A DNA stretch of 60,657 bases from a virus (Duplodnaviria > Caudoviricetes): IMG/VR virus record IMGVR_UViG_3300028895_000276, positions 1-60,657 of that record. One strand, written 5' to 3'. A program made the translations under genes and the position numbers. Below the pieces are notes generated by a model. That model was not told where the DNA came from. It made no database searches and was given only the letters and a program-made list of their open reading frames with translations. Positions within the stretch are counted from its first letter, which is position 1, and every line of letters starts with the position of its first letter. Shown piece after piece: positions 6,211 to 49,666 of the stretch.

Positions 6211-6316
6211 CCGATGCCGTCCCGCTGCAACGGGAGATACTCTCCTTGCTCTTCGTGGTATCCTAAGCTATGTCAGGCCCTGTGTGAGCCGTCCCGTGCA
6301 AGGAAAATACCTTCCG
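6211..6316 (-). repeat. Dispersed intergenic hairpin element, copy A
   Basis: Minus-strand arms CGGAAGGTATTTTCCTTGC and GCAAGGAGAGTATCTCCCG; homologous to copies at 14859, 32279, 37942, 49554. Confidence 0.85.
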
Positions 6317-7000
6317 TTAAAGCCGACGTCTACCGCCACGACCTTTATTGCTAGCCTCCCTGTCTGCCAACCACTTGATCTTGGCTAGAATCGCGTACTG
6401 TGCTACCACCTCGCTCTGCTCCGGTCCCGTCAGGCTGCAGAACTCCTGCCACGATAGATGCTGCTCGGTGGCCGCTAGACGTGCCTGCAAGACTGCGGAC
6501 ATCCGTGCGTCGCCACCGGTGATGCGGTACTGCTCTAGCGGTATGCCCTTCCACCTAGCGTCGAATGCTGCGTACGCCTCATCTAGACCTCGTTCTGTCA
6601 CGGTGCTTAGGTACAGGGTCTCTTCGACGACAGACACTAGGTCATCGCGTGACCCTAGTGCTATGTTCTGCAAGTACTCTATGGTGCTGTCCGTCGAGAT
6701 CCCGAGGTCATGCATCTCCAGCACCCGAGGATCCCGCCGCCAGTCAGCCGGCTCCACTATCAGCACCGAGTGTGCTAAGATGTTCAACTGCTCTAAGGCC
6801 ATCGAGACCCGGTATTCCTGCATAGCCGCCTGGTAGTCAGGATCATCTAGTACCGGCACCTCTTCCACGCCGCCGCCCAGCACGACCACCTCGCGTACCG
6901 GTGGCTGTGGCGCCGGCTGCGATACAGAGTATCTGTCGATCACGCGCCGGTCTATGCGCACGATTTCCAGCACTACGCCGGCGGACGTTATGTAGCGCAC
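6317..7000 (-). CDS. Probable tail assembly chaperone
   Basis: 227 aa ORF between the tail tube genes and the tape measure gene. Confidence 0.55.
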   Translation of the reverse strand: MRYITSAGVVLEIVRIDRRVIDRYSVSQPAPQPPVREVVVLGGGVEEVPVLDDPDYQAAMQEYRVSMALEQLNILAHSVLIVEPADWRRDPRVLEMHDLGISTDSTIEYLQNIALGSRDDLVSVVEETLYLSTVTERGLDEAYAAFDARWKGIPLEQYRITGGDARMSAVLQARLAATEQHLSWQEFCSLTGPEQSEVVAQYAILAKIKWLADREASNKGRGGRRRL

Positions 7001-7014
7001 TCAGCACCAGTATG

Positions 7015-7056
7015 ACGGCAAGGCACAGAACCTAAGCCCTGTGCCTAGTACCGTCA
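7015..7056 (-). terminator. Stem-loop after the tail tube genes
   Basis: gacggcaaggcacag...ctgtgcctagtaccgtc imperfect inverted repeat just after the stop at 7069; no U-tract. Confidence 0.5.
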
Positions 7057-7068
7057 CGCTATGCTGCA

Positions 7069-8076
7069 CTACGAAATCACCGCGACGAAGCCGGTGTTGG
7101 CTCCATCCCCTCCAACAACGAGTGCGCGGTTGTTGTCGCAGCACACCACATCAGCCGGAGCATAGTCGGTGGTTAGAGCGTCGAAGCCAGTCTCCGCTAC
7201 CCACTGCCCCGTACCCCACCCAGTATTGCGATAGACCTTGTGCTGCGCTGGGAGTCCGTCACCGGTAGCCACGACGTAGGTAACCCCAGCCTTGTCGATG
7301 CTGCCGCAAGGACATGACGAGATCGCCGTGATCGCTGGCGAAGAATCGAGGTCGGGCAACTCTGCTTGCTGCGTCCAGGTCTCGCCGCCGTCTGTGGTCT
7401 GCCACAACTCGCCGTCATCGTTGCCGACCAGCACGTCGTTCTCACCGACGATCTCGATAGCGGTCAACGCGTCTGTGGCACTCGGTCCGGTCAGAGCAAA
7501 CCACGAGTAGCCGCCGTTCGTGCTCTTGATGATCGCGTTGCTCGCGCCGATCGCGTAGACCACGCTCGGGTTGCGTCGGCAGATCTTGACCTTGGTGAGG
7601 TTCTGTGCTGTGGCGCTGCCGCTCTCCACCTCTGTGTAGGTCTGTCCGTAGTCCGTGGACAACCATACTCGCCCGGTGCCACCAACGATAATGCACAAGG
7701 ACGGATGGACGCAGTCGCCGGCGTACGGTTCGTACGTTGCCATGGACGTAGCACCAGCAACGTAGGAGACAGAGCTACCCTTGTCGCCGGACACTGCCAG
7801 CGGTAGCGTCTCACCGCCGTTGATAACGGTCAGGAAATCGCCCACGCCGAAAACGTCCGAAGGATCCTCTGTGGTCCACGAGGTCAGGCCGATGCCGGAC
7901 CATTGCGAGAAGATGCCACCCTTCTCATTGACGTAGAGCCACGGTGAACCCTCGTTGCCAAGGACTGACACGATCGCAAACGCGCACTCCTCAGCTTCGG
8001 CGCAGCCCTTAGCACAGCCCTCGCCGTTGAGCGAGACTGCCGCTGCGATAGAGACATCTTGTGTGATCTCAGCCAT
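7069..8076 (-). CDS. BNR/YCF48-like beta-propeller virion protein (tail-associated)
   Basis: Asp-box repeats STDYGQTY, STNGGYSW, TTDGGETW; ATG at 8076 after GGAGG. Confidence 0.75.
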   Translation of the reverse strand: MAEITQDVSIAAAVSLNGEGCAKGCAEAEECAFAIVSVLGNEGSPWLYVNEKGGIFSQWSGIGLTSWTTEDPSDVFGVGDFLTVINGGETLPLAVSGDKGSSVSYVAGATSMATYEPYAGDCVHPSLCIIVGGTGRVWLSTDYGQTYTEVESGSATAQNLTKVKICRRNPSVVYAIGASNAIIKSTNGGYSWFALTGPSATDALTAIEIVGENDVLVGNDDGELWQTTDGGETWTQQAELPDLDSSPAITAISSCPCGSIDKAGVTYVVATGDGLPAQHKVYRNTGWGTGQWVAETGFDALTTDYAPADVVCCDNNRALVVGGDGANTGFVAVIS

Positions 8077-8078
8077 CT

Positions 8079-13010: not shown

Positions 13011-14840
13011 CTAGCCTCTAGCCTTGACAACAGCCTGCACATCGCGCTTGATGATCTTGCCATCCCTGCCCGTACCCGTCACCTCTGCTAGGTCCACGCC
13101 ACTGACCTCTGCGAACGAGGCCGCAGCGGGTGACACGTTGTATTCGACAGGCTCAACGGGAGTCGGCGCCGGCGCAACGACCTTCTCTTTCTGCGGCTCC
13201 TCGCTCGGTGTCGGTTCGGGTGATTTAACCACACTCTCTTCTGGCTGCGGCTGGACTGCCGGCAACGCTGCCCTCTCGAATTCGACCATCCCTGTGAGCC
13301 ATTCGGCGTCCACCGGGTCAGCCCAAAACATCATGTTGCGCTGGTTGCGCCCATACTTGTAGCGTTGGCCAGTTGGACCGTTGATAGTCTGGTTGCCGAT
13401 GTTGGCGCCCAGGTACTTGACCAACACGCTGCCGTCATCTCTAGACGCAGCTAGCGCCGCTACTGCAGGACTGGACCTAGTCCCAGTCTTGCTAACCACC
13501 ACCCGAGGTGTCGTCTTTCGCCTACCACCACAACAAGCCATCGGTAACTCCCCTTTCGAGTAAACAGCACTGTGGATCCGCGCCACCTTGTGCAAGAAAT
13601 AGGACCGAGGACGAGGTACCCGTTGCGTGCGTCCTTGCCCCTCGCGCCTATAGCAATAGTGCGCCTCCCGCAGATGTACTCCACAGTACCCGTGCAACCC
13701 TAGGTTGATGTTGAACTCCCAGTCCTCTCGCCCGTTGTCCATCCTGTTAGAATAGCCACCGGTTTCCAACCATGCAATACGCGGAAACATGATACCCTTA
13801 TGCATACAGTTACGGTCTAACAGTTCATCAAACACGTACTCTGGCATGACCTTACGCTGTCGTGCTCCGTTCCTGCCGTGGTAGACGATGTCGTCGTAGA
13901 CCACGCTGTGTGGGTTTGCTAGCTGCAACTCGTACATGCGCTCTAGCCGCCGAGGTGCCATCCAGTCATCGCCATCCAGGACCGTGCAGAACCTGCCCTT
14001 GGCTATGCTCAGGCCGGCGTTAGCCGCCGAACTCGCGCCACCGTTGCGCTGCCGTACGTAGTGAATCGCCTTCCACGGGTCGTGTAGTCTCTGCCCGACT
14101 ATGGGCGTATTGTCCATGCTGCCGTCGTCCACTATAATGATCTCGGTAGCCTGGAACGTCTGGTCTAGCACCGAAGTCACAGCCTGCTCTAGATAGCGCC
14201 CATAGTTGTAGCACGTTATGATCACGCTGATCTCTGGTGGCGTCTTGATCAACCACCGTCTAGCTGCCCTGTCGCCACCAACATCCTCTATAGCCTGTCT
14301 GATACTGGTGCCGTAGGTCTTCGGTCTCTTATGCTTGAAGTAGCCACGCACGTCCAGCGGCTGCACCCGGAACCCGCTGCGGCACGCCCGCAGTTGATAC
14401 TCGCACGTGGCACCCCATAGTGGATAGAGGTCTCCGTTGAAGCCGCCTATAGCGTTCAGCAGGTCACGACGCACGAACATGAACGTTCCCTGTACATAGC
14501 CGTTAGGCCAGCCAGGGTGTTTCATAACGCCGTCACCGATGATCGCATAGCTCTGTCTCTCTGCTAGCGCACGCTGCCATCCGTTCAGCAACTCGCCGTC
14601 CTGGTTCAGCACCAGCACGTCCGTGTCACACTCAGCGAACCCACGGTTGCAGCCGCCCGAGAAGTAGCCGCGCTCATGCTGCTTGATCACGCGCACGTTA
14701 GGCCATCTGGATACGTCTGGTGGCGCACTGCCGTAATCGTTGATGACCAGGGTGGGGATATCCGCCGGCACGGTGTCCAGAAGAGCCGGCAACGTTGCGT
14801 GACCGTGCCAGAACGGGATGACTACAGTTAGGTTGTCCAA
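13011..14840 (-). CDS. Tandem GT2 glycosyltransferase with a C-terminal E3-binding-like domain
   Basis: Two GT-A units (VVIP/INDYGS/LNQD and SVIITCYN/IVDDGSMD/LDGDD/EDWE); C-terminal SPAA..FAE..GVDL.EV.GTGRDGKI.K.DV; start chosen at TTG after GGAGGG (track start 14888 lies in a hairpin repeat). Confidence 0.88.
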   Translation of the reverse strand: MDNLTVVIPFWHGHATLPALLDTVPADIPTLVINDYGSAPPDVSRWPNVRVIKQHERGYFSGGCNRGFAECDTDVLVLNQDGELLNGWQRALAERQSYAIIGDGVMKHPGWPNGYVQGTFMFVRRDLLNAIGGFNGDLYPLWGATCEYQLRACRSGFRVQPLDVRGYFKHKRPKTYGTSIRQAIEDVGGDRAARRWLIKTPPEISVIITCYNYGRYLEQAVTSVLDQTFQATEIIIVDDGSMDNTPIVGQRLHDPWKAIHYVRQRNGGASSAANAGLSIAKGRFCTVLDGDDWMAPRRLERMYELQLANPHSVVYDDIVYHGRNGARQRKVMPEYVFDELLDRNCMHKGIMFPRIAWLETGGYSNRMDNGREDWEFNINLGLHGYCGVHLREAHYCYRREGQGRTQRVPRPRSYFLHKVARIHSAVYSKGELPMACCGGRRKTTPRVVVSKTGTRSSPAVAALAASRDDGSVLVKYLGANIGNQTINGPTGQRYKYGRNQRNMMFWADPVDAEWLTGMVEFERAALPAVQPQPEESVVKSPEPTPSEEPQKEKVVAPAPTPVEPVEYNVSPAAASFAEVSGVDLAEVTGTGRDGKIIKRDVQAVVKARG

Positions 14841-14858
14841 CAAACCCTCCGCTTTAAC

Positions 14859-14943
14859 CGAAGGTACTTTCCTTGCACGTGACGGCATTCAGTGCTATGC
14901 TGGCCGCTATGTGTGCCGTCCTGTGCAAGGAAAATGCCTCCCG
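14859..14943. repeat. Dispersed intergenic hairpin element, copy B
   Basis: cgaaggtactttccttgcacgtgacggca ... tgccgtcctgtgcaaggaaaatgcctcccg long imperfect inverted repeat. Confidence 0.8.
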
Positions 14944-14973
14944 TTGCGTCCCGTGATGCTTCCGATGCAAGAC

Positions 14974-15010
14974 CACCGTGGGGAGAGTGGTATTAGCCCT
15001 CCCCACGGTG
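14974..15010 (-). terminator. Stem-loop downstream of the major capsid gene
   Basis: caccgtggggag ... ctccccacggtg perfect 12-bp stem; no U-tract. Confidence 0.65.
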
Positions 15011-15052: not shown

Positions 15053-16375
15053 TTACGGGCAGACCGCTGCGTCGAAGCTGGTCTCGGGGTAGAAGCTGGT
15101 CTCAGCCGGGTCTGGCGACAGCGGGTCAACCGCGCTGCGGCAGACAACGTCCTGGAACCGGATCTGCGCCCAAGGAGCCGCACAGAACAGACGCGGGTGA
15201 TGCCACAGCTTGAGCTTGTAGCACTCGTTGTCTGTGTCGTATTTGCCCAGCAACCTGCCGTTGTCCAGTGTGAAGTAGTCGCCCACGTTGGCGCCGGTGA
15301 CGTTGGGTGCGAAGTTGGACAGAGCCGTGTTAGCGCTGAGCATCTCGCCTTCGAGAATGCGTCGCCCGCCGATGCTGCCGGTCAGGAAGTACATGTCGAA
15401 ACGCGTCGGTCCGTTGATCGTCTCCCAGTCGTAGGCCATCAGCGGAATGGTGATACCGTCCAGCGTGATGTAGCCATGACCGTACAGGTTCGCCGGGTTC
15501 GTGGCCGAGATGAGGTTATCGCGGAACATCCGCGCCTCGTAGGTCTGCAGGTTGACCTCGCTGTACTGCTGGCCCGCGCAAACACTCCAGCATGTGTAGA
15601 AGTCCAGCAGACACTCAGCCGCGAAAGTCGGCAACAGGATGATCATGTCGCCCAGCGCCGGCAACGAACCGCCGAGGATGGGTGACCAGGACAGCCGCTG
15701 GCGAATGCGTCGGAAGATCGCCTGTAGCACGTCGATGATGTCGAACGTCGCGTCGATGCCGTCGCCGTTGACGGTGATACCAGCACCACCGGTCATCGGG
15801 TTGTCATTCCAGTCCACCACCCATGCGTTGAGCGGTGCACCGTGCCCGGTAGAGATCCACTGTTGCAAGCCGTCGAACTGACCGCCGACTGCGTCGTTGC
15901 CGGTGATCACCAGCCGGCGCATGTCGTCCATGATCTGGTCGGTCGTGAACAGCATATCCCACTCCTGCTCGCTGTCAACGGGTGAACCGTCGAGACGATA
16001 GCGAGGAGAGGTCTTGCAGTAGTACTTGGGCTTCATGATCTCGCGGGTCGGACCGGCACGCGTGATACGCCCGAAGTCCTCGACTGAGATGCTGCGTGTC
16101 CCGAACTCCCAGGAGTTAGGATCGGCACACGGGTCACTCTGATAGCCGGCGCTATCGCCGCTGCTGTCTGGCCGGCGGAAGGTGATGAACTCGAGAGTGC
16201 GCTTGCACTCTTCCGTCACCTGGAAGTTGAGCCAGTCCAGGAACCCCATGGTCCCACGGTACGTGAGGCTCAGGATCTCGTCGGCGCACTGATCGAAGTA
16301 GTTGCAGCACCCGAAGGGTGTCGCACTCGTCGACAGGGTGAGCCGCTGCTGGATCGGAAGTCGGTTCTGGTTCAT
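15053..16375 (-). CDS. Major capsid protein
   Basis: 440 aa, downstream of the protease/scaffold gene, strong C/G third-position bias, GND...QFDGL motif, followed by a stem-loop. Confidence 0.8.
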   Translation of the reverse strand: MNQNRLPIQQRLTLSTSATPFGCCNYFDQCADEILSLTYRGTMGFLDWLNFQVTEECKRTLEFITFRRPDSSGDSAGYQSDPCADPNSWEFGTRSISVEDFGRITRAGPTREIMKPKYYCKTSPRYRLDGSPVDSEQEWDMLFTTDQIMDDMRRLVITGNDAVGGQFDGLQQWISTGHGAPLNAWVVDWNDNPMTGGAGITVNGDGIDATFDIIDVLQAIFRRIRQRLSWSPILGGSLPALGDMIILLPTFAAECLLDFYTCWSVCAGQQYSEVNLQTYEARMFRDNLISATNPANLYGHGYITLDGITIPLMAYDWETINGPTRFDMYFLTGSIGGRRILEGEMLSANTALSNFAPNVTGANVGDYFTLDNGRLLGKYDTDNECYKLKLWHHPRLFCAAPWAQIRFQDVVCRSAVDPLSPDPAETSFYPETSFDAAVCP

Positions 16376-18081: not shown

Positions 18082-18172
18082 TGGTAAGCCTCCTCACACA
18101 AGAGACCACGCAGATTGTCGGCTGCGTGGTCTCGCTGGACTCGCCGTGATATTGGATACCTCGTGTACACCA

Positions 18173-18201: not shown

Positions 18202-18216
18202 GTATGTGTACATCGC

Positions 18217-32262: not shown

Positions 32263-32278
32263 TAGCCACGAGACGCCA

Positions 32279-32387
32279 CGGAAGGCATCTCCCTTGCACG
32301 GAAGCGCACGCATACCCACGAACACACCCTCGATGCGACGGAGAGCAAGGGAGATACCACGGAGAGCAACGGAGACACATTCGGATC
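32279..32387 (+). repeat. Dispersed intergenic hairpin element, copy C
   Basis: cggaaggcatctcccttgc ... gcaagggagatacc ... cattcggat. Confidence 0.85.
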
Positions 32388-34652: not shown

Positions 34653-34660
34653 AGCACCGC

Positions 34661-37166: not shown

Positions 37167-37934
37167 ATGAACCTCACAGACAAGCAGACCATCCAGCGAG
37201 TGCTGAAGGCACTAGGCGTCAAGGCCGAGACCATCAAGAGCGACCTCGACGTCGATCGCCTAAGCGAGTACGACGGATCTATCGAGGATGCCGTGCTTAT
37301 CCTCATCCACAACGCGGCAATCAGGCTGCAAGCCGACGTGCCCGAGAGCATCAAGACCCGCGCCACAGTCAGCAGCAACGTGCTAGGGTTCAATATCGAG
37401 GTCACCGGTAACAGCGTCATCGACATCAAGGACGGGTACTACACAGCCATTCGCGCTATCACGGATCTGCGGCAGGAAGGTTTCCACGAGTTGGCCATGC
37501 GCGACGGCACGCGGGCACAACCCACGTACAGCGCAGAGCCGCCACCTATGCCCGAGGACAACCCGCCGCCACCAGCCGGCAGCCCACCACCCGCAGCCGG
37601 CAGCCAGCCTACAGGCAGCCCACCACCAGCCGGCAACGGCAACCCACCGATCCAAGGACCCACCGACATCAAGCGAGGTGTAGCTCAACTGCACGAGATC
37701 GGCGTCGATTCCGATGGTAAGGTCAAGTTCAAGGTGGGTGGGTTCAAGTGGCCGTTCCAGGAGGGACGTGGCGCCGAGATGGCAGCGTCGCTGTTCGACA
37801 CCGATCTTGGCTGGAACGCTAATCACTTCAAGCCTGGCGCCCACTACGGACCCGAGATCTGTGGCCCGCTGCACGTAGAGTGGGAGAAGCCTGGCAAGTA
37901 CTACAACGTGATACGCGTCTTCAAGCAGATCTGA
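37167..37934 (+). CDS. Hypothetical protein with a Pro-rich linker
   Basis: PPPAGS repeats join two domains; upstream of ssb. Confidence 0.75.
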   Translation: MNLTDKQTIQRVLKALGVKAETIKSDLDVDRLSEYDGSIEDAVLILIHNAAIRLQADVPESIKTRATVSSNVLGFNIEVTGNSVIDIKDGYYTAIRAITDLRQEGFHELAMRDGTRAQPTYSAEPPPMPEDNPPPPAGSPPPAAGSQPTGSPPPAGNGNPPIQGPTDIKRGVAQLHEIGVDSDGKVKFKVGGFKWPFQEGRGAEMAASLFDTDLGWNANHFKPGAHYGPEICGPLHVEWEKPGKYYNVIRVFKQI

Positions 37935-37941
37935 CGCACTA

Positions 37942-38050
37942 GAAGGTACTCTCCTTGCACAGGACGGCACCAACAGGCCCTAACACACCCTCGATGCGAC
38001 GGAGAGCAAGGGAGATACCACGGAGAGCAACGGAGACCCATTCGGATTCA
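37942..38050 (+). repeat. Dispersed intergenic hairpin element, copy D
   Basis: gaaggtactctccttgcacaggacggc...; 37982-38037 identical to 32321-32376. Confidence 0.88.
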
Positions 38051-38073: not shown

Positions 38074-38514
38074 ATGCACGAGAGATGGCAGATTATCGGC
38101 AACCTTGGCGGAGACCCCGAGATGCGCTACACTGCAGACGGCACACCCGTCACCAACGTTAGCATAGCAGTGACACGACGCTGGAACGACCGCAACAGCG
38201 GCAACCGCCGCGAGCATACCACCTGGTACCGGGTGGCCGCGTGGAGCCGCAACGCTGAAGTGCTGGCCGAATACACGCACAAGGGAAGCCGCGTCTTCAT
38301 CGAAGGCGTGCCGGCAACCGACGAAAACGGCAACCCGCGCATCTGGACCGGGCAGGACGGGCAAGCACGCGCTAGCTATGAACTGACCGCGCAGAAGATC
38401 GTCCTGCTGGGTGACAGCGGTGGACAGCGCGACGCCGGCAACCAGCGGCAGGGTACCAGTCGCTATGCGGCACCAACCTCTGTGGCCGATAACGACGACG
38501 CCATCCCATTCTGA
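38074..38514 (+). CDS. ssb: Single-stranded DNA-binding protein
   Basis: IIGNLGGDPEMRYT, TTWYRVAAW, KGSRVFIEG, acidic tail DDAIPF. Confidence 0.95.
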   Translation: MHERWQIIGNLGGDPEMRYTADGTPVTNVSIAVTRRWNDRNSGNRREHTTWYRVAAWSRNAEVLAEYTHKGSRVFIEGVPATDENGNPRIWTGQDGQARASYELTAQKIVLLGDSGGQRDAGNQRQGTSRYAAPTSVADNDDAIPF

Positions 38515-41988: not shown

Positions 41989-42013
41989 AGTGCACAAGCA
42001 AGGAGGGACGACC

Positions 42014-43825
42014 ATGAGCTACTACGCCTTAAGCTTCGAACCCGGTGACGTAGAAGAGCCTCTGACAGCAGAGGACATCGCCGCGATAGCTGCATCAGAT
42101 ATGGTGGCTATCGACACGGAGACCACCGGGCTGGACTACGACAGCAGGATCCTTGGTATTAGCGTAGCGTGGCGCGTGCCCGGTGCTATGCACAGTGCCT
42201 ACCTGAACCTTAGTCACCCGCTGAGCCTGTTTTCAGCACGCATCGACGACGACATCGTCGCGGACGTGATGAGAGCGGTCTTTGAACCGGACCGACCGGT
42301 GGCTCTGCTAAACGCCGTCTTCGACATAGAGAAGCTGTCACGCTGGGGTCACCTGGAGCTGCCTATCGAATACCCGTACCTCTACGACGCACAGATCCTG
42401 GCGCGTTGGCTGATGTCCTTCGAGAAGTTCCAAGGCGTCAGCATGGAGAAGCTAGTTAGCCGGCGCCTAGGCGGCATGCCGCCGTGGATGAGCAGCATGA
42501 AGAAGATGAGGTCCAAGCTAGGGACGCTACCAGCGGAGAAGGTCAGCCCGTACGCCCGCGCCGACGCCGAGTTCACCTTGATGCTGGTCGAGGATCTGAT
42601 GCGCGAGGGTAGACTGCTCTACGACGACGAAGTCCTAGACACGATGCTGGAACGCGAGAGCCGGTTTTTGTGGTTACTCACCCGGATCCAGCGACACGGT
42701 ATCCTGCTGGACCTCGAAGAGATCCACGAGCGGTCCGTACGAATGACCGCAGACATGCAAGAGCTGCGAGCGTTCCTGAAGCAGAACGGCATTCACAACC
42801 CGGACAGCCGCGATAGCGTTCTCAAGGGTCTACCTATGCACATCGTGGCAGGACTACCGCAGACCGACAACGGCAACTACAAGATCGACAGTGCTGCCCT
42901 AGCCGGAAAAGGACCGGTGGCCGAGGCAGTATTGCGCTATCGCAGTTTAGGCAAGGCCGTTGGTACGTGGCTGGACGGTTTCCGCAGCAAGGTAGCCAGC
43001 GATGGCCGGCTGCATCCGCGATTCCGCGCTGCCGGCACGGTCTCTGGCCGGCTGTCCTGCAACGAGCCGAATTTGCAGGCTGTCCCACTAGCGGACCGTG
43101 GCGCCGCGTTCGGTAGCCTGATGGGTATATTCAAGGCAGCACCTGGATTCTCGCTGTTGGCTGCAGACTACGAGCAAGCCGAGCTTCGGACGTGCGCCGC
43201 GTATGCTAAGTCTACCGCTATGGCCAACGCATTCAAGAACGGAGAGGATATTCACTCGTTTGCTGCTAGTCTGATGTGGCCGGACTCGGAGATCAACTAC
43301 GAGCTACGGCAGCTAGGCAAACGTTGCAACTACTGCACCACCTACGGTGGCGGGTACCGTGCGCTGGCCGAGAACACTGGCATACCTGAGAGCGAAGCCA
43401 AGATCGTCATCAACACGTACCGTCGTGCCTTCCCTGAACTGGTAGCAGCACAGAATCGCGCCGGTGACGTATGGGAGCAGCGAGGGTACATCACGATGTG
43501 GAATGGCCGCCGGCACTACAAGTCACCTAACGACGGCAGCTACAAAGCCTTCAACCAGGTCATGCAGGGTGACGTAGCTGAGCTGGTCAAGGACGCTATG
43601 CTGAGTGTGGACGCCCGGTTCGCAGAGATGGGTGTTGGCAACATCGTGCTACAGATCCACGACAGCATCGAAGTCGAGGTACAGACCGACGCCGTCGAGG
43701 ACGTGAAAGCGATGATGCGTAAGGAGATGGTAGCCGCCGCACCGCTGCACATCATGAACCGCACTGAGCCGCCTATCACCATGGACGTTGGGTTCGAGAA
43801 CTGGTACCCCGAGGAGGACGAATGA
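42014..43825 (+). CDS. polA: Family A DNA polymerase with 3'-5' exonuclease (candidate DpoZ)
   Basis: Exo I DTETTG, Exo II NAVFD, Exo III YARAD; SGRLS..PNLQ; motif A DYEQAELR; motif B KRCNYCTTYG; motif C IHDS. Confidence 0.95.
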   Translation: MSYYALSFEPGDVEEPLTAEDIAAIAASDMVAIDTETTGLDYDSRILGISVAWRVPGAMHSAYLNLSHPLSLFSARIDDDIVADVMRAVFEPDRPVALLNAVFDIEKLSRWGHLELPIEYPYLYDAQILARWLMSFEKFQGVSMEKLVSRRLGGMPPWMSSMKKMRSKLGTLPAEKVSPYARADAEFTLMLVEDLMREGRLLYDDEVLDTMLERESRFLWLLTRIQRHGILLDLEEIHERSVRMTADMQELRAFLKQNGIHNPDSRDSVLKGLPMHIVAGLPQTDNGNYKIDSAALAGKGPVAEAVLRYRSLGKAVGTWLDGFRSKVASDGRLHPRFRAAGTVSGRLSCNEPNLQAVPLADRGAAFGSLMGIFKAAPGFSLLAADYEQAELRTCAAYAKSTAMANAFKNGEDIHSFAASLMWPDSEINYELRQLGKRCNYCTTYGGGYRALAENTGIPESEAKIVINTYRRAFPELVAAQNRAGDVWEQRGYITMWNGRRHYKSPNDGSYKAFNQVMQGDVAELVKDAMLSVDARFAEMGVGNIVLQIHDSIEVEVQTDAVEDVKAMMRKEMVAAAPLHIMNRTEPPITMDVGFENWYPEEDE

Positions 43826-44448
43826 CCGAAGAGAAAGAGCCGTATCTGGACCACCCCAGCGCCACAGAGCAAGACGCTACCTGGAGGAACACATCCAGCG
43901 TGGATTGGCTGTCGCCACCCGAGGTGCTAGCAGCCGCCCGCAACGTCATGGGCAAGTTCGATCTCGATCCAGCCAGCAGCGAGAAGGCTAACCAGTTCGT
44001 GCGCGCCGAGGTATTCTTCGGACAGGACAACGGCACGGACGGTCTGCAGATGCCCTGGCGTGGCAGGGTCTGGTTGAATCCACCATACGGTAAGTACAAA
44101 CCGGGTGTCAGCCGTGCCGGCATGTGGGGCAAGAAGCTACTCGAGGAGTACATCGCAGGCAAGGTAATAGAAGCGTGCCTGTACGTCAAGACCGCCGTTG
44201 GCTATAAGTGGTTCGACAAACTACTGCAGCAGGCCGATGCCGTCTGTTTCCTGTGGGGTCTGCCCGAGCACCTGAACCTCGTAGACAACCGCTACGGGAA
44301 GTGCAAGATGGGCAGAGCAGTGATGTACTACGGGTCGCACCCTGCACAGTTCGTGCAGTGCTTTAGGCACCTAGGCTATTTCCGGTTCGACGCCGCCGAC
44401 CGCACGGATTACCACGTCCTACGCGCTGTTGGTATGGCCAAATTCTAA
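43822..44448 (+). CDS. Phage DNA N6-adenine (amino) methyltransferase
   Basis: W.SPP, FDLDPAS, DGL..PW.GRVWLNPPYG motifs of the phage Dam-like family. Confidence 0.9.
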   Translation: MTEEKEPYLDHPSATEQDATWRNTSSVDWLSPPEVLAAARNVMGKFDLDPASSEKANQFVRAEVFFGQDNGTDGLQMPWRGRVWLNPPYGKYKPGVSRAGMWGKKLLEEYIAGKVIEACLYVKTAVGYKWFDKLLQQADAVCFLWGLPEHLNLVDNRYGKCKMGRAVMYYGSHPAQFVQCFRHLGYFRFDAADRTDYHVLRAVGMAKF

Positions 44449-44462
44449 CGGAAGGAGACACC

Positions 44463-44786
44463 ATGAAGGACTCGTTGCAAGCGAAGGTCGGATCCGTGCT
44501 GTTCATGTTGGCGATGATTGGGTTGACCATCGGCGCCGCTGCCTACTTCGGCAATCTGCTGATCGAGGAGATAGTCAGCAACCGCGCCGAGACCATCCTG
44601 GCGAACGGTGAGCTGGCTATCGATGAAGCCATCGCCCGCAGCATCGACGCCGGCACAGCCGCTTCGATGGCAGACACCAGGCTAGCCACCGCTATGTCCT
44701 GGTACCCGTTCGTCATCGGAGTAACTGCCGTGTTCGCTGTCGTTTTCTACGTCCTACTGACAGCGCCGGCACGGAAGAACAGTTAA
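44463..44786 (+). CDS. Two-TM membrane protein
   Basis: N- and C-terminal hydrophobic helices; RBS AAGGAG. Confidence 0.7.
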   Translation: MKDSLQAKVGSVLFMLAMIGLTIGAAAYFGNLLIEEIVSNRAETILANGELAIDEAIARSIDAGTAASMADTRLATAMSWYPFVIGVTAVFAVVFYVLLTAPARKNS

Positions 44787-44788
44787 TA

Positions 44789-44845
44789 GTCATGTGTAGC
44801 TAGTGACACCTGACACTAGCACGGAGCAGCAAACTGGTGTTTAAT
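44789..44845 (+). promoter_or_regulatory. Operator-type promoter of the purZ operon
   Basis: Half site GTCAT 44789, GTGACACCTGACAC 44803, TTTAAT 44840; no TTGACA. Confidence 0.65.
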
Positions 44846-44876
44846 AGGGTCACGTCACAACCCACAGGAGGAAGCG

Positions 44877-45974
44877 ATGTTACAGCAGGTATGGAGTATC
44901 GTTGGCGGTCAGGCCGGCAGCGAAGGCAAAGGCAAGGCAGCCGGGTATCTGGCAGCCGCTCTCAAGCCCGAGGTGGTAGCGTGCGCGTTCACCGCCAACG
45001 CTGGCCACACAGCGTATGACCGGGACGGCAACAAGATCGTCGTGCACACCATCCCGATTGGCGCGTTCTTCGGCGCAAAGCTGGTCGTCATCGGACCGGG
45101 TGCTGCCATCCGCACGTGGCGCCTGATCGAGGAGATGGAAGCGTTGCACCGCGTGAACCCGGACTGCAAGGTGCTGCTAGACGAGAACGTGGTACTCATC
45201 TCACCGGAGCAGGTAGCGTGGGAAGCCGAGACGATGAAGAAGATCTCGTCCACGTGCCAAGGCGTGGGACGCGCACAGGCCGACAGGCTACTGCGGCAGG
45301 GTCGCGCAGACACCGCTAGCAACCACGCACCCACCTTCATCGAAGGTCTCACAGTAGGCAGCGCCGCCGAGGTGTTGCAGGTGCGCTACGATTCCGGTGA
45401 CAAGATCCAGATCGAAGGTTGTCAAGGTATCGACATCGACCTACTACACGGGATCCAGTACCCGTACTGCACCAGCCGCAGCATCACCGCCGCAGCCGTG
45501 GCTAACGACTGTGGATTCCCTGCAACCCGCGTGGACAGCGTGGTCTCGGTGTTCCGCACCTACCCTATCCGCGTGGGCAACGTGGTTGAGGAAGGCAAGC
45601 AGGTTGGATGGAGCGGACCTATCCCACGGGACAGCGACGAGTTGACGTGGGACGAGATGACCAAGCTGGCCGGCAGCCCCGAGAGACTAGAGGAGCGAAC
45701 CACCGTCACCAAGAAGGTACGCCGCATCTTCACGTGGAGCCGGCAGCGCTACATCGTCTCGCAGTGGCTGAACAACGCCACGCACGCGTGGGTTAACTTC
45801 GGTGACTACCTCGACTGGAACATCCACGGCGTGTGCGGCAACACCACAGAGCTGCATAGCATCAGCAAGACCGCTGCGCAGTGGGTTGACACCGAGATCG
45901 GCATGTCACACCTGCTGGCACTCGGTACCGGTCCTGGCATGGATGACGTGATCGCGCATCCTAGACTGAGGTAG
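44877..45974 (+). CDS. purZ: N6-succino-2-amino-dAMP synthetase (PurZ/PurZ0 type, PurA paralogue)
   Basis: GGQAGSEGKGK (Ser for the PurA Asp of GDEGKGK), NAGHT, EGCQG, YPYCTSR, RTYPIRVG, ERTTVTKKVRR, LGTGP; 365 aa. Confidence 0.88.
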   Translation: MLQQVWSIVGGQAGSEGKGKAAGYLAAALKPEVVACAFTANAGHTAYDRDGNKIVVHTIPIGAFFGAKLVVIGPGAAIRTWRLIEEMEALHRVNPDCKVLLDENVVLISPEQVAWEAETMKKISSTCQGVGRAQADRLLRQGRADTASNHAPTFIEGLTVGSAAEVLQVRYDSGDKIQIEGCQGIDIDLLHGIQYPYCTSRSITAAAVANDCGFPATRVDSVVSVFRTYPIRVGNVVEEGKQVGWSGPIPRDSDELTWDEMTKLAGSPERLEERTTVTKKVRRIFTWSRQRYIVSQWLNNATHAWVNFGDYLDWNIHGVCGNTTELHSISKTAAQWVDTEIGMSHLLALGTGPGMDDVIAHPRLR

Positions 45975-45976
45975 CG

Positions 45977-47116
45977 ATGATCGAGCGCTACAACAACGCA
46001 GACATCGCTGGTATCTGGAGCACCACGAGCCAGTACCAGCGATGGCTGGACATCGAGAGGACTTGGATACGCTGCTTACTGGACATCGATCCACCGATGG
46101 TACCAGGAGAGGTGGTTATTCACGACATCCGCGTCAATACGTACGAGATCGAGCACTTCGAGACCGTGACACACCACGATGTGCGAGCATTCCTGATGTG
46201 GCTAGAGCGTGAGCTGCCGTCGCCGCTACGCAGATACCTACACCTAGGACTAACAAGCTCTGATGTCGTAGACACCGGCACAGCCCTAGCAGTGCGCGGT
46301 AGCGTGCGCGTGTTGGATGATATCTACAGCCGGCTGATACACTACCTGTACAAGAGTGCAGCCAGCGCGCCGCCGCTGCTACCATCCTACTCACACGGGC
46401 AGCCGGCACGCAGCATCTCGAGCGCCCACTTCTACCGGCGTCTAGAGATACCCATAGGTAGAGCGTTCTCAGAGGTGAGCGTATCGCAGCTGCCCATAGC
46501 CATCGGTGGTCCTACTGGCGAATGGTCAAGCTTACCACCAGGAGCCACGTCCACGCTGCTGCAAGCACGCTCATCTTTCAACGTCATCATGTCCACCCGC
46601 TACGGCGTAAAGAACGTAGCGCCGAGATCGCAGGCTCTGGACCGCTCTTACTACACGAAGCTAGCACAGGCACTCAGCAGGATGTCCAACGCACTGTCAC
46701 AGGCTGCCCTGCACCTGAGGTTCTACCACCTACGCGGTATGCTGCGGATAGGCGGTACAGCCTCATCATCAGCGATGCCGAACAAGAGCAACCCAGTACG
46801 CCTAGAGAAGGTGTGCGGCATGGCACGCGTAGCGCGAGGGTACGCTCTGATGGCCGGCTGCAACCAGGACACGTGGGAGCTACGCGACATCAGCAACTCG
46901 TCAGTAGAAAGGGTCTGGATGCCGGATCTGTTCCACACGGTGGCACACCAGGTTAGCACGCTCTGCAACGTGATCGCCAAGATGCAGTGGGTCGAGCCGG
47001 CAATCGACGCTGAGCTAGCAGCCTTCCCCAATGACCCATTCGGAAAGATGGTGGCGTTGCAAGCCACCGGGATGCACTACAACAAAGCATGGCGCACAGC
47101 CAAGGAGGACACATGA
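45977..47116 (+). CDS. purB: Adenylosuccinate lyase homologue
   Basis: HHDV, HLGLTSSDVVDT, SHGQPA, SSAMPNKSNP..E, RDISNSSVER; 379 aa, short C-terminus. Confidence 0.92.
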   Translation: MIERYNNADIAGIWSTTSQYQRWLDIERTWIRCLLDIDPPMVPGEVVIHDIRVNTYEIEHFETVTHHDVRAFLMWLERELPSPLRRYLHLGLTSSDVVDTGTALAVRGSVRVLDDIYSRLIHYLYKSAASAPPLLPSYSHGQPARSISSAHFYRRLEIPIGRAFSEVSVSQLPIAIGGPTGEWSSLPPGATSTLLQARSSFNVIMSTRYGVKNVAPRSQALDRSYYTKLAQALSRMSNALSQAALHLRFYHLRGMLRIGGTASSSAMPNKSNPVRLEKVCGMARVARGYALMAGCNQDTWELRDISNSSVERVWMPDLFHTVAHQVSTLCNVIAKMQWVEPAIDAELAAFPNDPFGKMVALQATGMHYNKAWRTAKEDT

Positions 47117-47601
47117 GCACTGACTACAGCCGGCTGGGAGTGGTACCTATTGCCGACGTCACACAGGACCACGTGCAAGGATACGCCCGCGAGATGACAC
47201 CCAGCGCCGGCATCGTTCCGCTACACGACATCGAGCGCGTCATCGCGAGTATGTTTCTCAAGGTCAGGGACGGCGCTATGGACCGGATGCCCGGTACCCT
47301 GTCATTGTACGATGACGCGATGGCTATAGCGCCTCGCGTGCCCGGTATCGCGGACAAGCAACACGCTTTGGCCGAGGTACGCGCACGCATCAAAGAGCGA
47401 GGCGAGCAGTACGGGTGTGCCGTCCTCAACCTGATGGGTACCTGGTACACTAGCTCAAACGTGGCTGCCAAGCTACTGCGCGTGTGGGATCACTGGACAC
47501 AGCACAAGATCCTACTGACCGACGAAGTGCTAGACATCGCTGGGTACTGCATCTTGAACATGGCGATACTCACCCACAGCATGGCCGAGGTCGGACAATG
47601 A
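47113..47601 (+). CDS. All-alpha nucleotide pyrophosphohydrolase-like protein (candidate MazZ analogue)
   Basis: KERGEQYG ... KLLR ... DEVLDIAGY pattern of nucleotide-modification-associated MazG-like domains; operonic with purZ. Confidence 0.6.
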   Translation: MSTDYSRLGVVPIADVTQDHVQGYAREMTPSAGIVPLHDIERVIASMFLKVRDGAMDRMPGTLSLYDDAMAIAPRVPGIADKQHALAEVRARIKERGEQYGCAVLNLMGTWYTSSNVAAKLLRVWDHWTQHKILLTDEVLDIAGYCILNMAILTHSMAEVGQ

Positions 47602-48458
47602 ACAGCATCTACCTAGCCGGTCCTCTGGACTACGCCAACCTAGGCGACAAGGCAGCGTGGCGCGAACGGTTCGCAGCTCTGCTGGGTCAGCACTCTCCCA
47701 TGTCCGCACAGCTACCGCTGCTCTACGATCCTAGCAAGCCTTTCACCAACCCGCTGTCCAGCCCGGACACGCTGGTTTCCGTGAACATGGCCGCACTGGA
47801 AGCAAGCTCTATCGTGATAGCACTGGTTATCTCGACCGAGCCGTCGTGGGGCACACCCATCGAGATATGGGAAGCACGCCGGCAAGGCAAGCCCGTGCTG
47901 TTGTGGGTACCGAACGAGGACTGCCCGCCCTACCTCATCGCAGACACTGAACGGTATCTGACGCTGAACGCCATCGCCGCTAGGACCGCTGAGATGTTGT
48001 ACCAGGACGCAGATACCGACCTCGTCACCACGTCTCAAGACCTACTGTACGAGAACGGTGGTATCCAGTTCCCCAAGATCTCTGGTGATGTAGGGTATGA
48101 CGTCGAGGTGATGTCACAGACCAGGCTACTGCCGCACGCCATCACCAAGGTGCCATTGGGATTCAACGGTGAGCCACTACGCGTGAAGACACCGCGTGGT
48201 ACGTGGTTCTCGATGTTCCCACGCAGCAGCATGGTCGACAAGGGTCTAATGGTCGTGAAGACCGTCTGCGACGAAGGGTACACCGGTGATCTGTTCATGT
48301 TCGTGTACAACACCACCAACAAGCTGCTGATGCTGCTACCCGGACAGAGGATCGGGCAGATCGTGCTGTTCGATAGCGTCACGCCGCAGATGCGCCACGT
48401 GTCTACACTACCGCGCACCGCACGTGGCAGTAACGGTTTCGGCAGCACAGGGACGTGA
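47598..48458 (+). CDS. Fusion of a nucleoside 2-deoxyribosyltransferase-like domain and a trimeric dUTPase-like domain
   Basis: N-terminal IYLAGP and SWGTPIE..EA...GKPV; C-terminal GDVGYD, PRSS, CDEGYTG, GQRIGQ, RGSNGFGSTG. Confidence 0.88.
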   Translation: MNSIYLAGPLDYANLGDKAAWRERFAALLGQHSPMSAQLPLLYDPSKPFTNPLSSPDTLVSVNMAALEASSIVIALVISTEPSWGTPIEIWEARRQGKPVLLWVPNEDCPPYLIADTERYLTLNAIAARTAEMLYQDADTDLVTTSQDLLYENGGIQFPKISGDVGYDVEVMSQTRLLPHAITKVPLGFNGEPLRVKTPRGTWFSMFPRSSMVDKGLMVVKTVCDEGYTGDLFMFVYNTTNKLLMLLPGQRIGQIVLFDSVTPQMRHVSTLPRTARGSNGFGSTGT

Positions 48459-48898
48459 CCGTGAATAGGGACAGCCTACGCATCATCCGCACCACACCAA
48501 ACCCGAAAGACTACGCGTTGCACTGGTCAACCGCGTGGAACAGACACGTGAAACAGCGGTCAGTGATGCCAGAACCGATCTGCACCGACACCACCGGTGA
48601 GCTGGAGTTCGCCTACGCAGACCTCGACCGGCACTGGCGCTTCGACTGGTGTATACCCGAAGCCAAGGTCGCAGTAGAGGTGGACGGCGGCAAGATGATC
48701 GTACGCCGCACGCGTAGCGGCAAGGTCGTGCCAGTAGGCCGGCACATACAGGACGACGACGCGTGGAAGCTAAACAGCGCCGCGTCCCTAGGGTGGTTGG
48801 TATTCACCTTCACTCCGGCAATGCTGCGCAAAGACCCTGTCCGCTGCGTCGAGATGGTCGAGGAGACCGTGCTACAACGACTAGCGGGTTTGGTTTAA
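48455..48898 (+). CDS. PD-(D/E)xK endonuclease (DUF559/Vsr-like)
   Basis: EF...R.WRFD...KVAVEVDGG...H...D..K.N.A..LGW.VF.F. Confidence 0.8.
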   Translation: MTVNRDSLRIIRTTPNPKDYALHWSTAWNRHVKQRSVMPEPICTDTTGELEFAYADLDRHWRFDWCIPEAKVAVEVDGGKMIVRRTRSGKVVPVGRHIQDDDAWKLNSAASLGWLVFTFTPAMLRKDPVRCVEMVEETVLQRLAGLV

Positions 48899-48973
48899 TC
48901 ACACACAACCAACGGGAGCACGGGACTGCGGCAGACGCGGCAGCCCCGGCGCCCACCAACAAGGGAGAGACAC

Positions 48974-49372
48974 ATGAAGATCATTCTGGACATCACCACC
49001 ATACCGGTAGGCCGCAACGAGGATACAGACGAAGATCTGTTTGCTGTAGGCGTTGCCGTGGACATCCTGAGTTCTATCCTCGATGAGGACAACGAACTGC
49101 GACGAGCTATCGAGTACGGCACGGCAGCCGCCTTCTATCACACCCTCGTCTACGTCACCGAGAACATGGAACCCGCCGAACTATCCAGCATAATCGATGT
49201 GGCCACCACCGACGACGGATTCGACATCGTCACCGCTATCTCGCTACACACTACCAGCGCTATAGTCGGCGTCTTCAAACAGTTCTTGATCAACACGGGC
49301 AAGATGGCACCAAACAACGACGACACCGAAGAGTTGCTGGCCGAAGCACGCCGGCTGCTAGGAGCGGACTGA
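48974..49372 (+). CDS. Acidic hypothetical protein
   Basis: RBS AAGGGAG; 132 aa. Confidence 0.7.
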   Translation: MKIILDITTIPVGRNEDTDEDLFAVGVAVDILSSILDEDNELRRAIEYGTAAAFYHTLVYVTENMEPAELSSIIDVATTDDGFDIVTAISLHTTSAIVGVFKQFLINTGKMAPNNDDTEELLAEARRLLGAD

Positions 49373-49548
49373 TGGCTACACGCAAACGATCACGCAGACA
49401 CCTATCCGTCATCTGCAGCGAGTGCGGCAGAGAGATCAACTGGTCGTCCGCAGAGCAGTGCAGCCTGTGCGGCACAACGCTCTGCAAGTCGTGCTGGACA
49501 CGCTCTGGACGCTGCACACCCTGTGACCGATCCTTCAGAGACTACTAA
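49372..49548 (+). CDS. Small zinc-finger protein (58 aa, below the ORF-track cutoff)
   Basis: Hand translation MATRKRSRRHLSVICSECG...CSLCG..LCKSC...CTPC; TGATG overlap. Confidence 0.7.
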   Translation: MATRKRSRRHLSVICSECGREINWSSAEQCSLCGTTLCKSCWTRSGRCTPCDRSFRDY

Positions 49549-49553
49549 ACGCA

Positions 49554-49666
49554 CGGGAAGGTATTCTCCTTGCACGGGACGGCGTCTATAGGGGCCGACA
49601 TAGCCCTAGGTACCACGAAGAGCAAGGAGACTATCTCCCGTTGCAACGGAGACCCATTCGGATTCA
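49554..49666 (+). repeat. Dispersed intergenic hairpin element, copy E
   Basis: cgggaaggtattctccttgc ... gcaaggagactatctcccg ... cattcggattca. Confidence 0.88.

What the first reader, a model, noticed from the sequence alone, without database searches (positions are those of the whole stretch)
6211..49666. Five-copy intergenic hairpin element (~105 nt), mostly aligned with transcription
Seen: copies at 6211-6316 (-), 14859-14943 (near-symmetric), 32279-32387, 37942-38050 and 49554-49666 (+). Each has a 5' arm GAAGGYAYTYTCCTTGCAC, a variable middle and a complementary GCAAGG.GA.A..T.C arm; four also have a GCA.CGG...CAT(T)CGG tail. Arm differences often keep pairing or give G-U pairs. Copies A, C, D and E begin within about 20 nt of a stop and end shortly before the next RBS, in both early and late operons, with no U-tract. 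Inference: an undescribed cis-acting RNA (for example an RNase III-type processing site), a paired protein-binding site, or a small mobile repeat.
Basis: partly seen in the sequence, partly recalled or inferred. Interest (0 to 1): 0.75.

Follow-up and report, generated by a model that had tools for sequence, protein, structure and literature searches.

The report
Palindromic boundary repeat of PurZ phages
The five hairpin repeats are real copies of an uncatalogued 94-base palindromic spacer element that sits between genes in at least four unrelated groups of phages, all of which carry the gene for making aminoadenine DNA, and its arms are kept by their sequence rather than by RNA base pairing.

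Summary
All five copies are real (covariance model: only these five sites in the window). The unit is about 94 nt: two inverted 19-nt arms (GAAGGTAYTTTCCTTGCAC type), each itself a small palindrome, separated by 43-44 nt, plus a window-specific tail. It matches no Rfam family and no GenBank phage. The same element occurs in three other phage lineages that share almost no genes with this one: five 150-kb myoviruses (about 21-23 sites each), 50-kb myoviruses (3 each) and a 47-kb siphovirus (2). Spacer length is fixed, spacer sequence is not. On 49 copies there is no covariation (fewer pairs than shuffles), and G-U pairs do not outnumber A-C mismatches, so the simple "covarying RNA / RNase III site" reading is not supported. 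Copies sit at gene ends, often between convergent genes, stay at orthologous positions, recombine with each other, and are occasionally gained or lost. No transposase was found. Every sufficiently complete carrier (10 of 10) encodes PurZ, yet 0 of 80 other PurZ loci carry the element. Best reading (about 0.4): a REP/REPIN- or PeSL-like boundary cassette recognised by sequence that also punctuates transcripts. The recognising factor and the PurZ link are unexplained.

The parts
6200..6320 (-). Copy A: core 6227-6320 (5' arm starts at 6314), tail 6200-6226. Lies between the stop of ORF 6317-7000 and the ribosome-binding site/ATG (6176) of ORF 5748-6176, upstream of the tape-measure gene.
   Evidence: MFE -45.9, z -3.5; 80.6 bits
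14854..14975 (.). Copy B: near-perfect palindrome 14854-14947. Flanks and inverted tail core (14948-14975) are in + orientation, while CATAGC loop motifs are on the - strand. It sits between - strand genes 15053-16375 and 13011-14888 (likely start TTG 14840).
   Evidence: I2, I14; z -5.5/-5.2; 80.0 bits on -, 73.3 on +
32275..32387 (+). Copy C: core 32275-32367 plus tail. Lies after the vWA-domain gene 31528-32262 and before the 73-aa ORF 32404-32625. Its arms carry two compensated changes relative to the consensus.
   Evidence: z -2.5; 65.5 bits
37936..38050 (+). Copy D: core 37936-38028 plus tail. Lies after ORF 37146-37934 and before the SSB gene 38074-38514. Its 3' half is copied from C and its pairing is poor.
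   Evidence: D5, 82% to C; z -1.0; 63.2 bits
49551..49666 (+). Copy E: core 49551-49644 plus tail. Lies after the 58-aa four-CxxC ORF 49372-49548 and before ORF 49691-49957. It is 84% identical to A over 94 nt.
   Evidence: I1; z -3.1; 78.2 bits
44877..47116 (+). PurZ-like adenylosuccinate-synthetase homologue (44877-45974) and PurB-like lyase (45977-47116). These are essentially the only proteins this phage shares with the other element-bearing lineages. The functional link to the element is unexplained.

Best explanation
The element is the phage counterpart of the bacterial REP/REPIN (BIME) repeats and of the T4-type PeSL cassettes: a two-fold symmetric boundary cassette.

Anatomy (shown). 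Two inverted copies of a sequence-conserved arm are held 63 +/- 1 nt apart, start to start. Each arm is itself a 7-bp palindrome around GTAC, flanked by CCTTG on the inside. The spacer keeps its length but not its sequence.

History (shown). The arms are conserved as sequence, each on its own, in four unrelated phage lineages. Copies persist at orthologous gene junctions, exchange halves and loops with one another, and are occasionally gained or lost together with a ribosome-binding site.

Mechanism (inferred). The arms are recognition sites for a factor that reads sequence on DNA, double- or single-stranded. That factor has not been identified. Because the cassette lies at gene ends and between convergent genes, every transcript that crosses it folds into a 17-22 bp hairpin. 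This hairpin most likely acts as a transcript boundary, by attenuating read-through, protecting the 3' end, or serving as an RNase III-type cut. That would uncouple the expression of neighbouring genes in genomes that otherwise show no canonical terminators.

Spread within and between genomes is by homologous recombination between copies, not by a resident transposase.
For: Only five sites in the window. The same architecture recurs elsewhere: 23, 21 and 22 sites in G001, G004 and G005; 3 each in G006 and G007; 2 in G011.

The spacer is 43-44 nt in every copy that has both arms. 49 of 77 sites are exactly 94 nt long and score at least 45 bits.

No covariation: 693 of 833 cells are paired against a shuffle mean of 710 (z -3.5). 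In a non-redundant set of 19 copies the figures are 274 of 323 against 279. G-T pairs number 29 and A-C mismatches 22 in the variable stem columns; in the window the count is 8 against 8.

Across 13 orthologous sites and 3 genome pairs, arms are 85-89% identical, loops 74% and flanks 75-83%. Orthologous positions are kept among G001, G004 and G005.

Chimeras exist. D equals C in its 3' half. The loop at the orthologous sheath site differs between G006 and G007. Reciprocal empty sites flank the Zn-ribbon gene in G006 and G007.

Position: with crude ORF calls, elements occupy 7 of 20 convergent junctions in G001 against 3 of 113 tandem junctions; 6 of 17 against 6 of 117 in G004; 5 of 17 against 7 of 116 in G005. 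In G006 they follow the DNA polymerase and tail sheath genes. In the window they follow the putative major tail gene and precede the SSB gene.

Canonical terminator-like sites in the window are at chance level: 11 against 9.1, 14 against 10.7, 8 against 7.1.

REPIN anatomy in print: invariant inverted 16-mers 71 bp apart, with spacer length and hairpin as the critical features (PMC3116915, passages). PeSLs act as terminator stem-loops and as recombination sites (PMC2839356, passages).
Against: No factor was found. Apart from PurZ (plus PurB and a dUTPase domain in some lineages), no protein is shared by the lineages at phmmer E<0.1. No Y1 transposase scores over the cut-off in 5 genomes.

REPINs show frequent compensatory changes; this element does not.

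Three copies in G001 (148192-148751) lie between divergent genes, and five (78517-80594) lie in an ORF-poor, iteron-rich stretch, where a transcript boundary is not obviously needed.

No RNA data exist, so no transcript end has been seen.

The model does not explain why all carriers encode PurZ.

Gene calls in the other phages are a crude longest-ORF heuristic.
Confidence: 0.4

Rival explanations
1. Pure cis-acting RNA. The long hairpin is the selected feature and works on the polycistronic mRNA as an RNase III-type processing site, a U-tract-less terminator/attenuator or a 3' stabiliser. Arm sequence is conserved only because copies are young or homogenised.
For: Intergenic position between stop codon and next ribosome-binding site, and 4 of 5 copies co-oriented with transcription. 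Strong folds for A, B, C and E (z -2.5 to -5.5). In the 150-kb phages the loop orientation agrees with the flanking genes in 15 of 19 classifiable tandem cases, though these are not independent. Enrichment at convergent junctions. Copy C has two compensated positions. No canonical terminators elsewhere in the window.
Against: No covariation, and fewer pairs than shuffled partners. G-U does not exceed A-C. D pairs poorly yet is retained. B is effectively inverted. Arms are near-identical between 59% GC and 41% GC phages while the loops have drifted to each genome's composition; a mere hairpin would not require this. A fixed 43-44 nt loop is not needed for such functions.
Confidence: 0.2
2. Paired double-stranded DNA operator. 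Each near-palindromic arm binds a dimer of a phage-encoded (or Z-DNA-tolerant) DNA-binding protein. The fixed spacing lets two dimers cooperate. Bound elements act as roadblocks or insulators for transcription, or as organising sites for replication or packaging.
For: Arms are conserved independently as sequence, each is itself palindromic, and the spacing is fixed. Single-arm copies are followed by an ordinary terminator hairpin (G001 93412, 60262, 51176). There are clusters next to iteron-like arrays. The element is restricted to PurZ genomes, as expected if the protein must read aminoadenine DNA.
Against: No common DNA-binding protein was detected in the four lineages. The distance between arm centres is about 70 bp, which is not a whole number of helical turns (reading). 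Orientation bias with transcription is not expected for a symmetric operator.
Confidence: 0.2
3. Selfish miniature mobile DNA (MITE/REPIN-like) that spreads between co-infecting phages. The arms are terminal inverted repeats for a transposase encoded elsewhere.
For: The same arms occur in unrelated phages. There is within-genome similarity of copies (A/E 84%, C/D 82%). Gain and loss occurred between G006 and G007. One convincing copy lies in a Treponema genome at a contig end.
Against: No Y1 transposase over the cut-off in 5 carrier genomes. No target-site duplication at the two empty sites. Nearly all sites are orthologous among genomes that differ by 10-20%. Loops have ameliorated to genome GC while the arms stayed unchanged. 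Only 3 pattern hits in one genome for each of 185,579 prokaryote species, so no host reservoir exists.
Confidence: 0.12

Closest known systems
REPINs / REP-BIME elements of bacterial chromosomes (REP doublets forming hairpins, mobilised by RAYT transposases)
   Same: Both have two invariant short sequences in inverted orientation at a fixed distance, each itself an imperfect palindrome. The spacer is less conserved, and what is kept is its length. Both are extragenic, and copies persist for a long time (PMC3116915, abstract and passages; PMC3337134, abstract).
   Different: This element lives in phage genomes and has no RAYT/Y1 transposase. It shows no compensatory changes, whereas these are common in REPINs. 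It is shared by unrelated genomes and restricted to PurZ carriers. The GTAG/CGTC tag of REPs (title and abstract of PMC3733652) is not part of the consensus.
PeSL regulatory cassettes (promoter-early stem-loops) of T4-type phages
   Same: Both are repeats of about 100 bp between genes, with a stem-loop that terminates or attenuates transcription. Recombination between copies shuffles neighbouring genes and produces chimeric copies (PMC2839356, abstract and passages). Compare D/C in the window and G006/G007.
   Different: No sigma-70 promoter reads with the genes. A TTGCNC-N17-TATG arrangement exists, but only on the strand opposite to the window's genes (reading). The arms are far longer, sequence-invariant and shared across unrelated phage groups, whereas PeSLs are lineage-specific.
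RNase III processing sites of the T7 early and late mRNAs (recalled, no paper read here)
   Same: Several similar hairpins per genome, each between a stop codon and the next ribosome-binding site and co-oriented with transcription.
   Different: Cleavage is untested. There is no structural covariation. The element is two-fold symmetric and also occurs between convergent and divergent genes.
Stoperators of mycobacteriophage L5 and SAS/ESAS of Cluster K phages
   Same: Many copies of a short conserved site in short intergenic gaps, with an orientation bias relative to transcription.
   Different: Those are 13-17 bp sites tied to a known repressor or to start codons within one phage cluster. This one is a 94-nt inverted doublet found across unrelated phages.

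Membership tests
Any Rfam 15 family | Score at or above the family's gathering threshold | tested here: not met
   0 hits in the window. At E<=1 on 15 loci there were only sub-threshold miRNA-precursor hairpins and one unrelated tRNA.
REPIN / REP-RAYT system | Two conserved REP-like sequences in inverted orientation at a fixed spacing, each an imperfect palindrome | tested here: met
   19-nt arms with a 43-44 nt spacer. Arm self-pairing AAGGAAG-GTAC-TTTCCTT (reading; local hairpins).
REPIN / REP-RAYT system | Cognate single-copy RAYT (Y1 HUH transposase) in the same genome | tested here: not met
   PF01797 search of G000, G001, G004, G006 and G007 found nothing over the cut-off. The best match was 12.9 bits and contained stop codons. 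Positive controls hit in 7 of 14 genomes.
REPIN / REP-RAYT system | Compensatory changes across the hairpin are common | tested here: not met
   Paired cells 693 of 833 against a shuffle mean of 710. Only 4 of 13 pairs show any double change in the 17-sequence seed.
Intrinsic (Rho-independent) terminator | GC-rich hairpin directly followed by a U-tract | tested here: not met
   No T-run after the 3' arm in A, C, D or E. The scan lists only a small hairpin at the edge of B (14864-14846) and an internal fragment of A.
T7-type RNase III site | About 20 bp of double-stranded RNA in an intergenic, co-oriented hairpin | tested here: met
   Stems of 17-22 pairs in A, B, C and E. D is weak.
T7-type RNase III site | Cleavage by RNase III / processed RNA ends | not testable with these tools
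   No RNA run holds the sequence.
PeSL cassette | Strong sigma-70 promoter reading into the downstream gene, next to the stem-loop | tested here: not met
   The promoter scan lists none at the five sites on the gene strand. The phage's real repeated promoters lie elsewhere (D3/D6).
MITE | Terminal inverted repeats plus target-site duplication, and empty sites in relatives | tested here: inconclusive
   Inverted arms are present. Two reciprocal empty sites exist between G006 and G007, but without a duplication. No empty site was seen at the single-copy junctions compared among G001, G004 and G005; comparisons within the multi-copy clusters were ambiguous.

The most novel reading that the evidence does not exclude
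The element is a cis-module specific to aminoadenine (Z) genomes. It would be a sequence-defined boundary or recognition site whose function exists only on diaminopurine-substituted DNA. One possibility is a terminator/insulator that replaces U-tract terminators, because rU:dZ hybrids are too stable. Another is the site of a still-unknown Z-DNA-reading factor. This would explain why four otherwise unrelated phage lineages share only the element and PurZ.
Probability: 0.15. Interest if true: 0.85.

Novelty: new variant of a known kind. Interest (0 to 1): 0.62.

Why it matters
Repeated palindromic boundary elements are known from bacterial chromosomes (REP/REPIN) and from single phage groups (PeSL, T7 R sites). 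This family keeps near-identical 19-nt arms and an identical spacer length in phages of 41-59% GC that share almost no genes, and no transposase accompanies it. Something common to these phages must read that sequence. The only common gene found is purZ, the marker of aminoadenine genomes. If the link is functional, it gives a first handle on how gene expression or DNA transactions are organised on Z-DNA. The idea can be tested with PCR templates made with dZTP. If the link is not functional, the family is still a clean case of recombination-spread regulatory cassettes crossing phage lineages, and a useful marker for gene exchange among such phages.

Tried and rejected
- Rfam at gathering score and at E<=1 gave nothing.
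- megablast of 10 kb of the window against GenBank phages gave no match. blastn of the element gave only partial matches of 36% coverage or less in 14 records.
- RNA evidence: no RNA holder was listed. Laying four DNA contig sets showed only contigs breaking at the repeats and cross-mapping of A and E. There was no bridged empty site.
- Partner protein, Zn-ribbon idea. The 58-aa four-CxxC ORF before E weakly resembles the Zn-ribbon gene next to the G006/G007 element (E 0.17-0.3). G001 has no such small CxxC protein. Dropped.
- Partner protein, general search. phmmer among lineages down to E 20 gave no consistent family. Pfam on G011 gave nothing shared beyond PolA, PurZ, primase-polymerase and glycosyltransferase domains. 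Pfam over all proteins of the window, G006 and G001 was planned but not run.
- Transposase: PF01797 is absent.
- Promoter reading. TTGCNC-N17-TATG is present but on the strand opposite to the genes in the window. The conserved letters do not match the key -10 positions (reading). Rejected.
- Peptide reading. 'MKIAE...KESTKES' ORFs start inside G001 copies. They are absent in the window, so they are treated as translation of the repeat.
- Riboswitch-type sensor. The loop has no conserved fold, and copies lie at convergent junctions. Rejected.
- PurZ module as carrier of the element. 0 of 80 other PurZ loci (1.25 Mb) carry it; one 17-bit hit has E 0.3. The carriers' PurZ proteins are not one clade (4 changes for 5 rows; quick tree only, the careful search did not finish).
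- Resemblances of the arms to Shine-Dalgarno/anti-Shine-Dalgarno, boxA and CIRCE sequences were noted from memory only and not tested.


Full report
THE OBJECT

The window is a complete 60,657-bp virus record with a 144-nt terminal repeat and 59% GC. One gene block runs on the - strand (tail, tape measure, terminase) and one on the + strand (early and replication genes, 27.4-50 kb).

The 5' arm pattern gives 7 hits at up to 3 mismatches against 0.19 expected by chance. A covariance model (R1) finds exactly these five sites and nothing else above 7.4 bits.

Each copy has the following parts:
- a 19-nt 5' arm (GAAGGYAYYYYCCTTGCAC);
- 43-44 variable nucleotides;
- the complementary 3' arm;
- in A, C, D and E, a tail of the type GCARCGGRGAC..CAT(T)CGGA.

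Predicted RNA folds are strong for A, B, C and E (z -2.5 to -5.5) but not for D (z -1.0).

- The 3' half of D is an almost exact copy of the 3' half of C, so D pairs badly.
- B has the 5' flank and the downstream layout of A, but on the + strand (pair I2). Its tail core is reverse-complemented, and its loop motifs read on the - strand. B is in effect an inverted or chimeric copy lying 106 nt from the upstream stop.
- On the sense strands of the five copies, G-T pairs number 8 and A-C mismatches number 8. The impression that differences give G-U pairs is not borne out.

A FAMILY THAT REACHES FAR BEYOND THIS PHAGE

The element matches no Rfam family. No GenBank phage matches it. No paper in the library contains the arm strings.

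Exact-pattern scans of IMG/VR, followed by the model, show the same element in three other groups.

1. Five myoviruses of about 150 kb and 41% GC (G001-G005).
   - They give 44-47 strand-matches each.
   - This corresponds to 23, 21 and 22 distinct sites in the three genomes I fetched whole.
   - They carry T4-like replication genes, RtcB, and split polymerase and terminase genes.

2. Myoviruses of about 50 kb (G006, G007; fragment G012), with three sites each. Two of the sites lie directly after the DNA polymerase gene and after the tail sheath gene.

3. A 47-kb, 50% GC siphovirus (G011), with two diverged copies. One has a loop containing CCTGACATAAC, like copy A.

Small fragments (G008, G010, G013) also carry weak copies. 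One convincing copy (65.9 bits) lies at a contig end of a Treponema genome. Only 3 pattern hits turned up in one genome for each of 185,579 prokaryote species, so there is no host reservoir.

The lineages share almost no proteins.

WHAT IS CONSERVED

The arms are near-identical between the 59% GC and the 41% GC phages. For example, the + strand arm of B is identical to the G001 consensus. The loops have each genome's own composition, yet they keep 43-44 nt.

Each arm is itself nearly palindromic (AAGGAAG-GTAC-TTTCCTT). It continues inward as CCTTG-NN-CTCKRA.

On 49 copies of exactly 94 nt, the stem shows no covariation. 693 of 833 cells are paired, which is below the mean of 710 obtained when 3' partners are shuffled among copies (z -3.5). 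A non-redundant set of 19 copies gives 274 of 323 against 279. The window's C and D (93 nt) and 26 other sites were left out of this count. C is the one copy with two clean compensations.

G-T pairs (29) do not significantly exceed A-C mismatches (22). Pairing therefore follows from each arm's own sequence conservation. Mismatched chimeras such as D are common.

BEHAVIOUR IN GENOMES

Among G001, G004 and G005 (flanks 75-95% identical), essentially every single-copy site is orthologous. At 13 such sites the arms are 85-89% identical, the loops 74% and the flanks 75-83%.

G006 and G007 differ by a reciprocal presence/absence. The element, together with a ribosome-binding site, sits before the Zn-ribbon gene in one phage and after it in the other. 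There is no target duplication. At the orthologous sheath junction the two phages carry different loops, each like other copies of its own genome. So copies are stable, but they convert and recombine with each other.

With crude ORF calls, elements occupy:
- 7 of 20 convergent, 3 of 113 tandem and 1 of 20 divergent junctions in G001;
- 6 of 17, 6 of 117 and 1 of 16 in G004;
- 5 of 17, 7 of 116 and 0 of 18 in G005.

Some G001 copies keep the 5' arm and loop but end in an ordinary terminator hairpin. Two clusters lie in ORF-poor DNA full of GGAAGACAAT-like iterons.

In the window, canonical terminator-like motifs are at chance level, and almost none lie on the sense strand of the early block.

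No Y1 transposase is present in five carrier genomes.

THE PURZ LINK

The only proteins the window shares with the other lineages are:
- a PurZ-like adenylosuccinate synthetase;
- a PurB-like lyase (with G001 and G007);
- a dUTPase-type domain (with G006 and G007);
- PolA (with G011).

PurZ is present in all 10 carrier records that are at least 46% complete: G000, G001-G005, G006, G007, G011 and G012. G011 was picked from the DNA pattern alone before PurZ was looked for. PurZ was not found in the three fragments of 16-21% completeness. In the Treponema genome there is only a 467-aa PurA-like ORF on another contig.

In GenBank phages, PurZ homologues occur in 200 of 50,697 records, so four independent co-occurrences are very unlikely by chance.

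The converse does not hold. 0 of 80 other PurZ loci (1.25 Mb) carry the element. The carriers' PurZ proteins are not a clade (4 changes for 5 rows on a quick tree). I have no tested explanation for the link.

INTERPRETATION

The anatomy is that of REPINs: invariant inverted ends, each a small palindrome, with a spacer whose length is what matters. The genomic behaviour is that of PeSL cassettes: terminator stem-loops at gene boundaries that recombine and shuffle neighbours. Two defining REPIN features were tested and not met, namely the RAYT transposase and compensatory changes. The PeSL promoter was also tested and not met. I therefore file the element under neither family.

My best reading (0.4) has three parts:
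- It is a sequence-recognised boundary cassette. The recognising factor is unidentified.
- When transcribed, it forms a 17-22 bp hairpin that delimits transcripts.
- It spreads and is homogenised by recombination between copies.

What is shown: the anatomy, the distribution, the absence of covariation, the positional bias, the persistence at orthologous sites, and the chimeras. What is inferred: recognition by a factor, the effect on RNA, and the mode of spread.

The rivals are a pure RNA hairpin (0.2), a paired DNA operator (0.2) and a selfish mobile repeat (0.12).

The boldest reading not excluded is an element whose function depends on aminoadenine DNA (0.15).

LIMITS

- There are no RNA data.
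- Gene calls in the other phages are heuristic.
- Only exact-pattern scans of the big collections were possible, so diverged carriers are under-sampled.
- The partner search was by sequence similarity only.

Noticed in passing
window 27377-27550, 28993-29166, 29950-30123, 34038-34211 (also 28662-28698, 34716-34740; inverted at 18166-18205 and 27291-27323): A second repeat family. It is a promoter cassette of about 174 nt: TTGACA, a 17-nt spacer ending in TGTGG, then TTTAAT (TATAAT at 18173-18201), followed by a shared ribosome-binding site and a GAGATGACA start region. It heads at least five early transcription units and two leftward ones.
   Followed up: partly
window 41990-48458: A gene run typical of aminoadenine (Z) genome phages: PolA with 3'-5' exonuclease, Dam-like methylase, PurZ-like synthetase, PurB-like lyase, and a fusion of a nucleoside deoxyribosyltransferase domain with a dUTPase/dCTP-deaminase-like domain. 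The phage probably replaces adenine in its DNA. No DatZ or MazZ homologue was looked for.
   Followed up: partly
window 49641-49694: After copy E, a 17-codon ORF starts at TTG 11 nt downstream of the AAGGAG in the 3' arm. It ends in a TGA that overlaps the ATG of gene 49691-49957 (ATGA). This is a possible coupling device. The same TTG in copy A is in frame with gene 5748-6176. It is absent in C and D.
   Followed up: no
window 27396-27426 and 34660-34690: 31-nt inverted pair (87% complementary) made of CATGACA-type short repeats. One member lies at the divergence point of the two gene blocks. It may be an operator or origin-like site.
   Followed up: no
window 13011-14888: A 625-aa ORF combining a family-2 glycosyltransferase domain with a C-terminal E3-binding (peripheral subunit-binding) domain, inside the structural gene block. 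G011 also carries three glycosyltransferase genes beside its head genes.
   Followed up: no
G001 (L091-L092) 78,600-80,450: Between the clustered element copies lie dozens of GGAAGACAAT / GAAAGACAAT / AAGGATTAT short direct repeats in mirror orientation around a central AT-rich stretch with AACTTTAAAAAA repeats and a GC hairpin, just upstream of a tRNA cluster. It looks like a replication origin or an array of protein- or RNA-binding sites.
   Followed up: partly
G001: L094 2914-4407 and L095 7684-8883; L091 6522-6980 and L094 5971-7104: The family-B DNA polymerase and the large terminase are each encoded as two ORFs tens of kilobases apart. An element copy lies 6 nt after the terminase N-terminal fragment. 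G001 also encodes RtcB, a Ro-like RNA-binding protein, GroEL and a TnpB-type 'transposase'.
   Followed up: no
L061 (Chloroflexota MAG contig), around 1001-1070: A short variant in which the arm cores TTTTCCTTGCAC and GTGCAAGGAAAA are separated by only 15 nt. It may be a minimal relative of the element or a chance hairpin.
   Followed up: no
window 53451-53833 and 54003-54287: Imperfect in-frame repeats (47 nt x 4; 102 nt x 2) inside the 966-aa - strand ORF 52943-55843, probably a repetitive tail-fibre-like protein.
   Followed up: no
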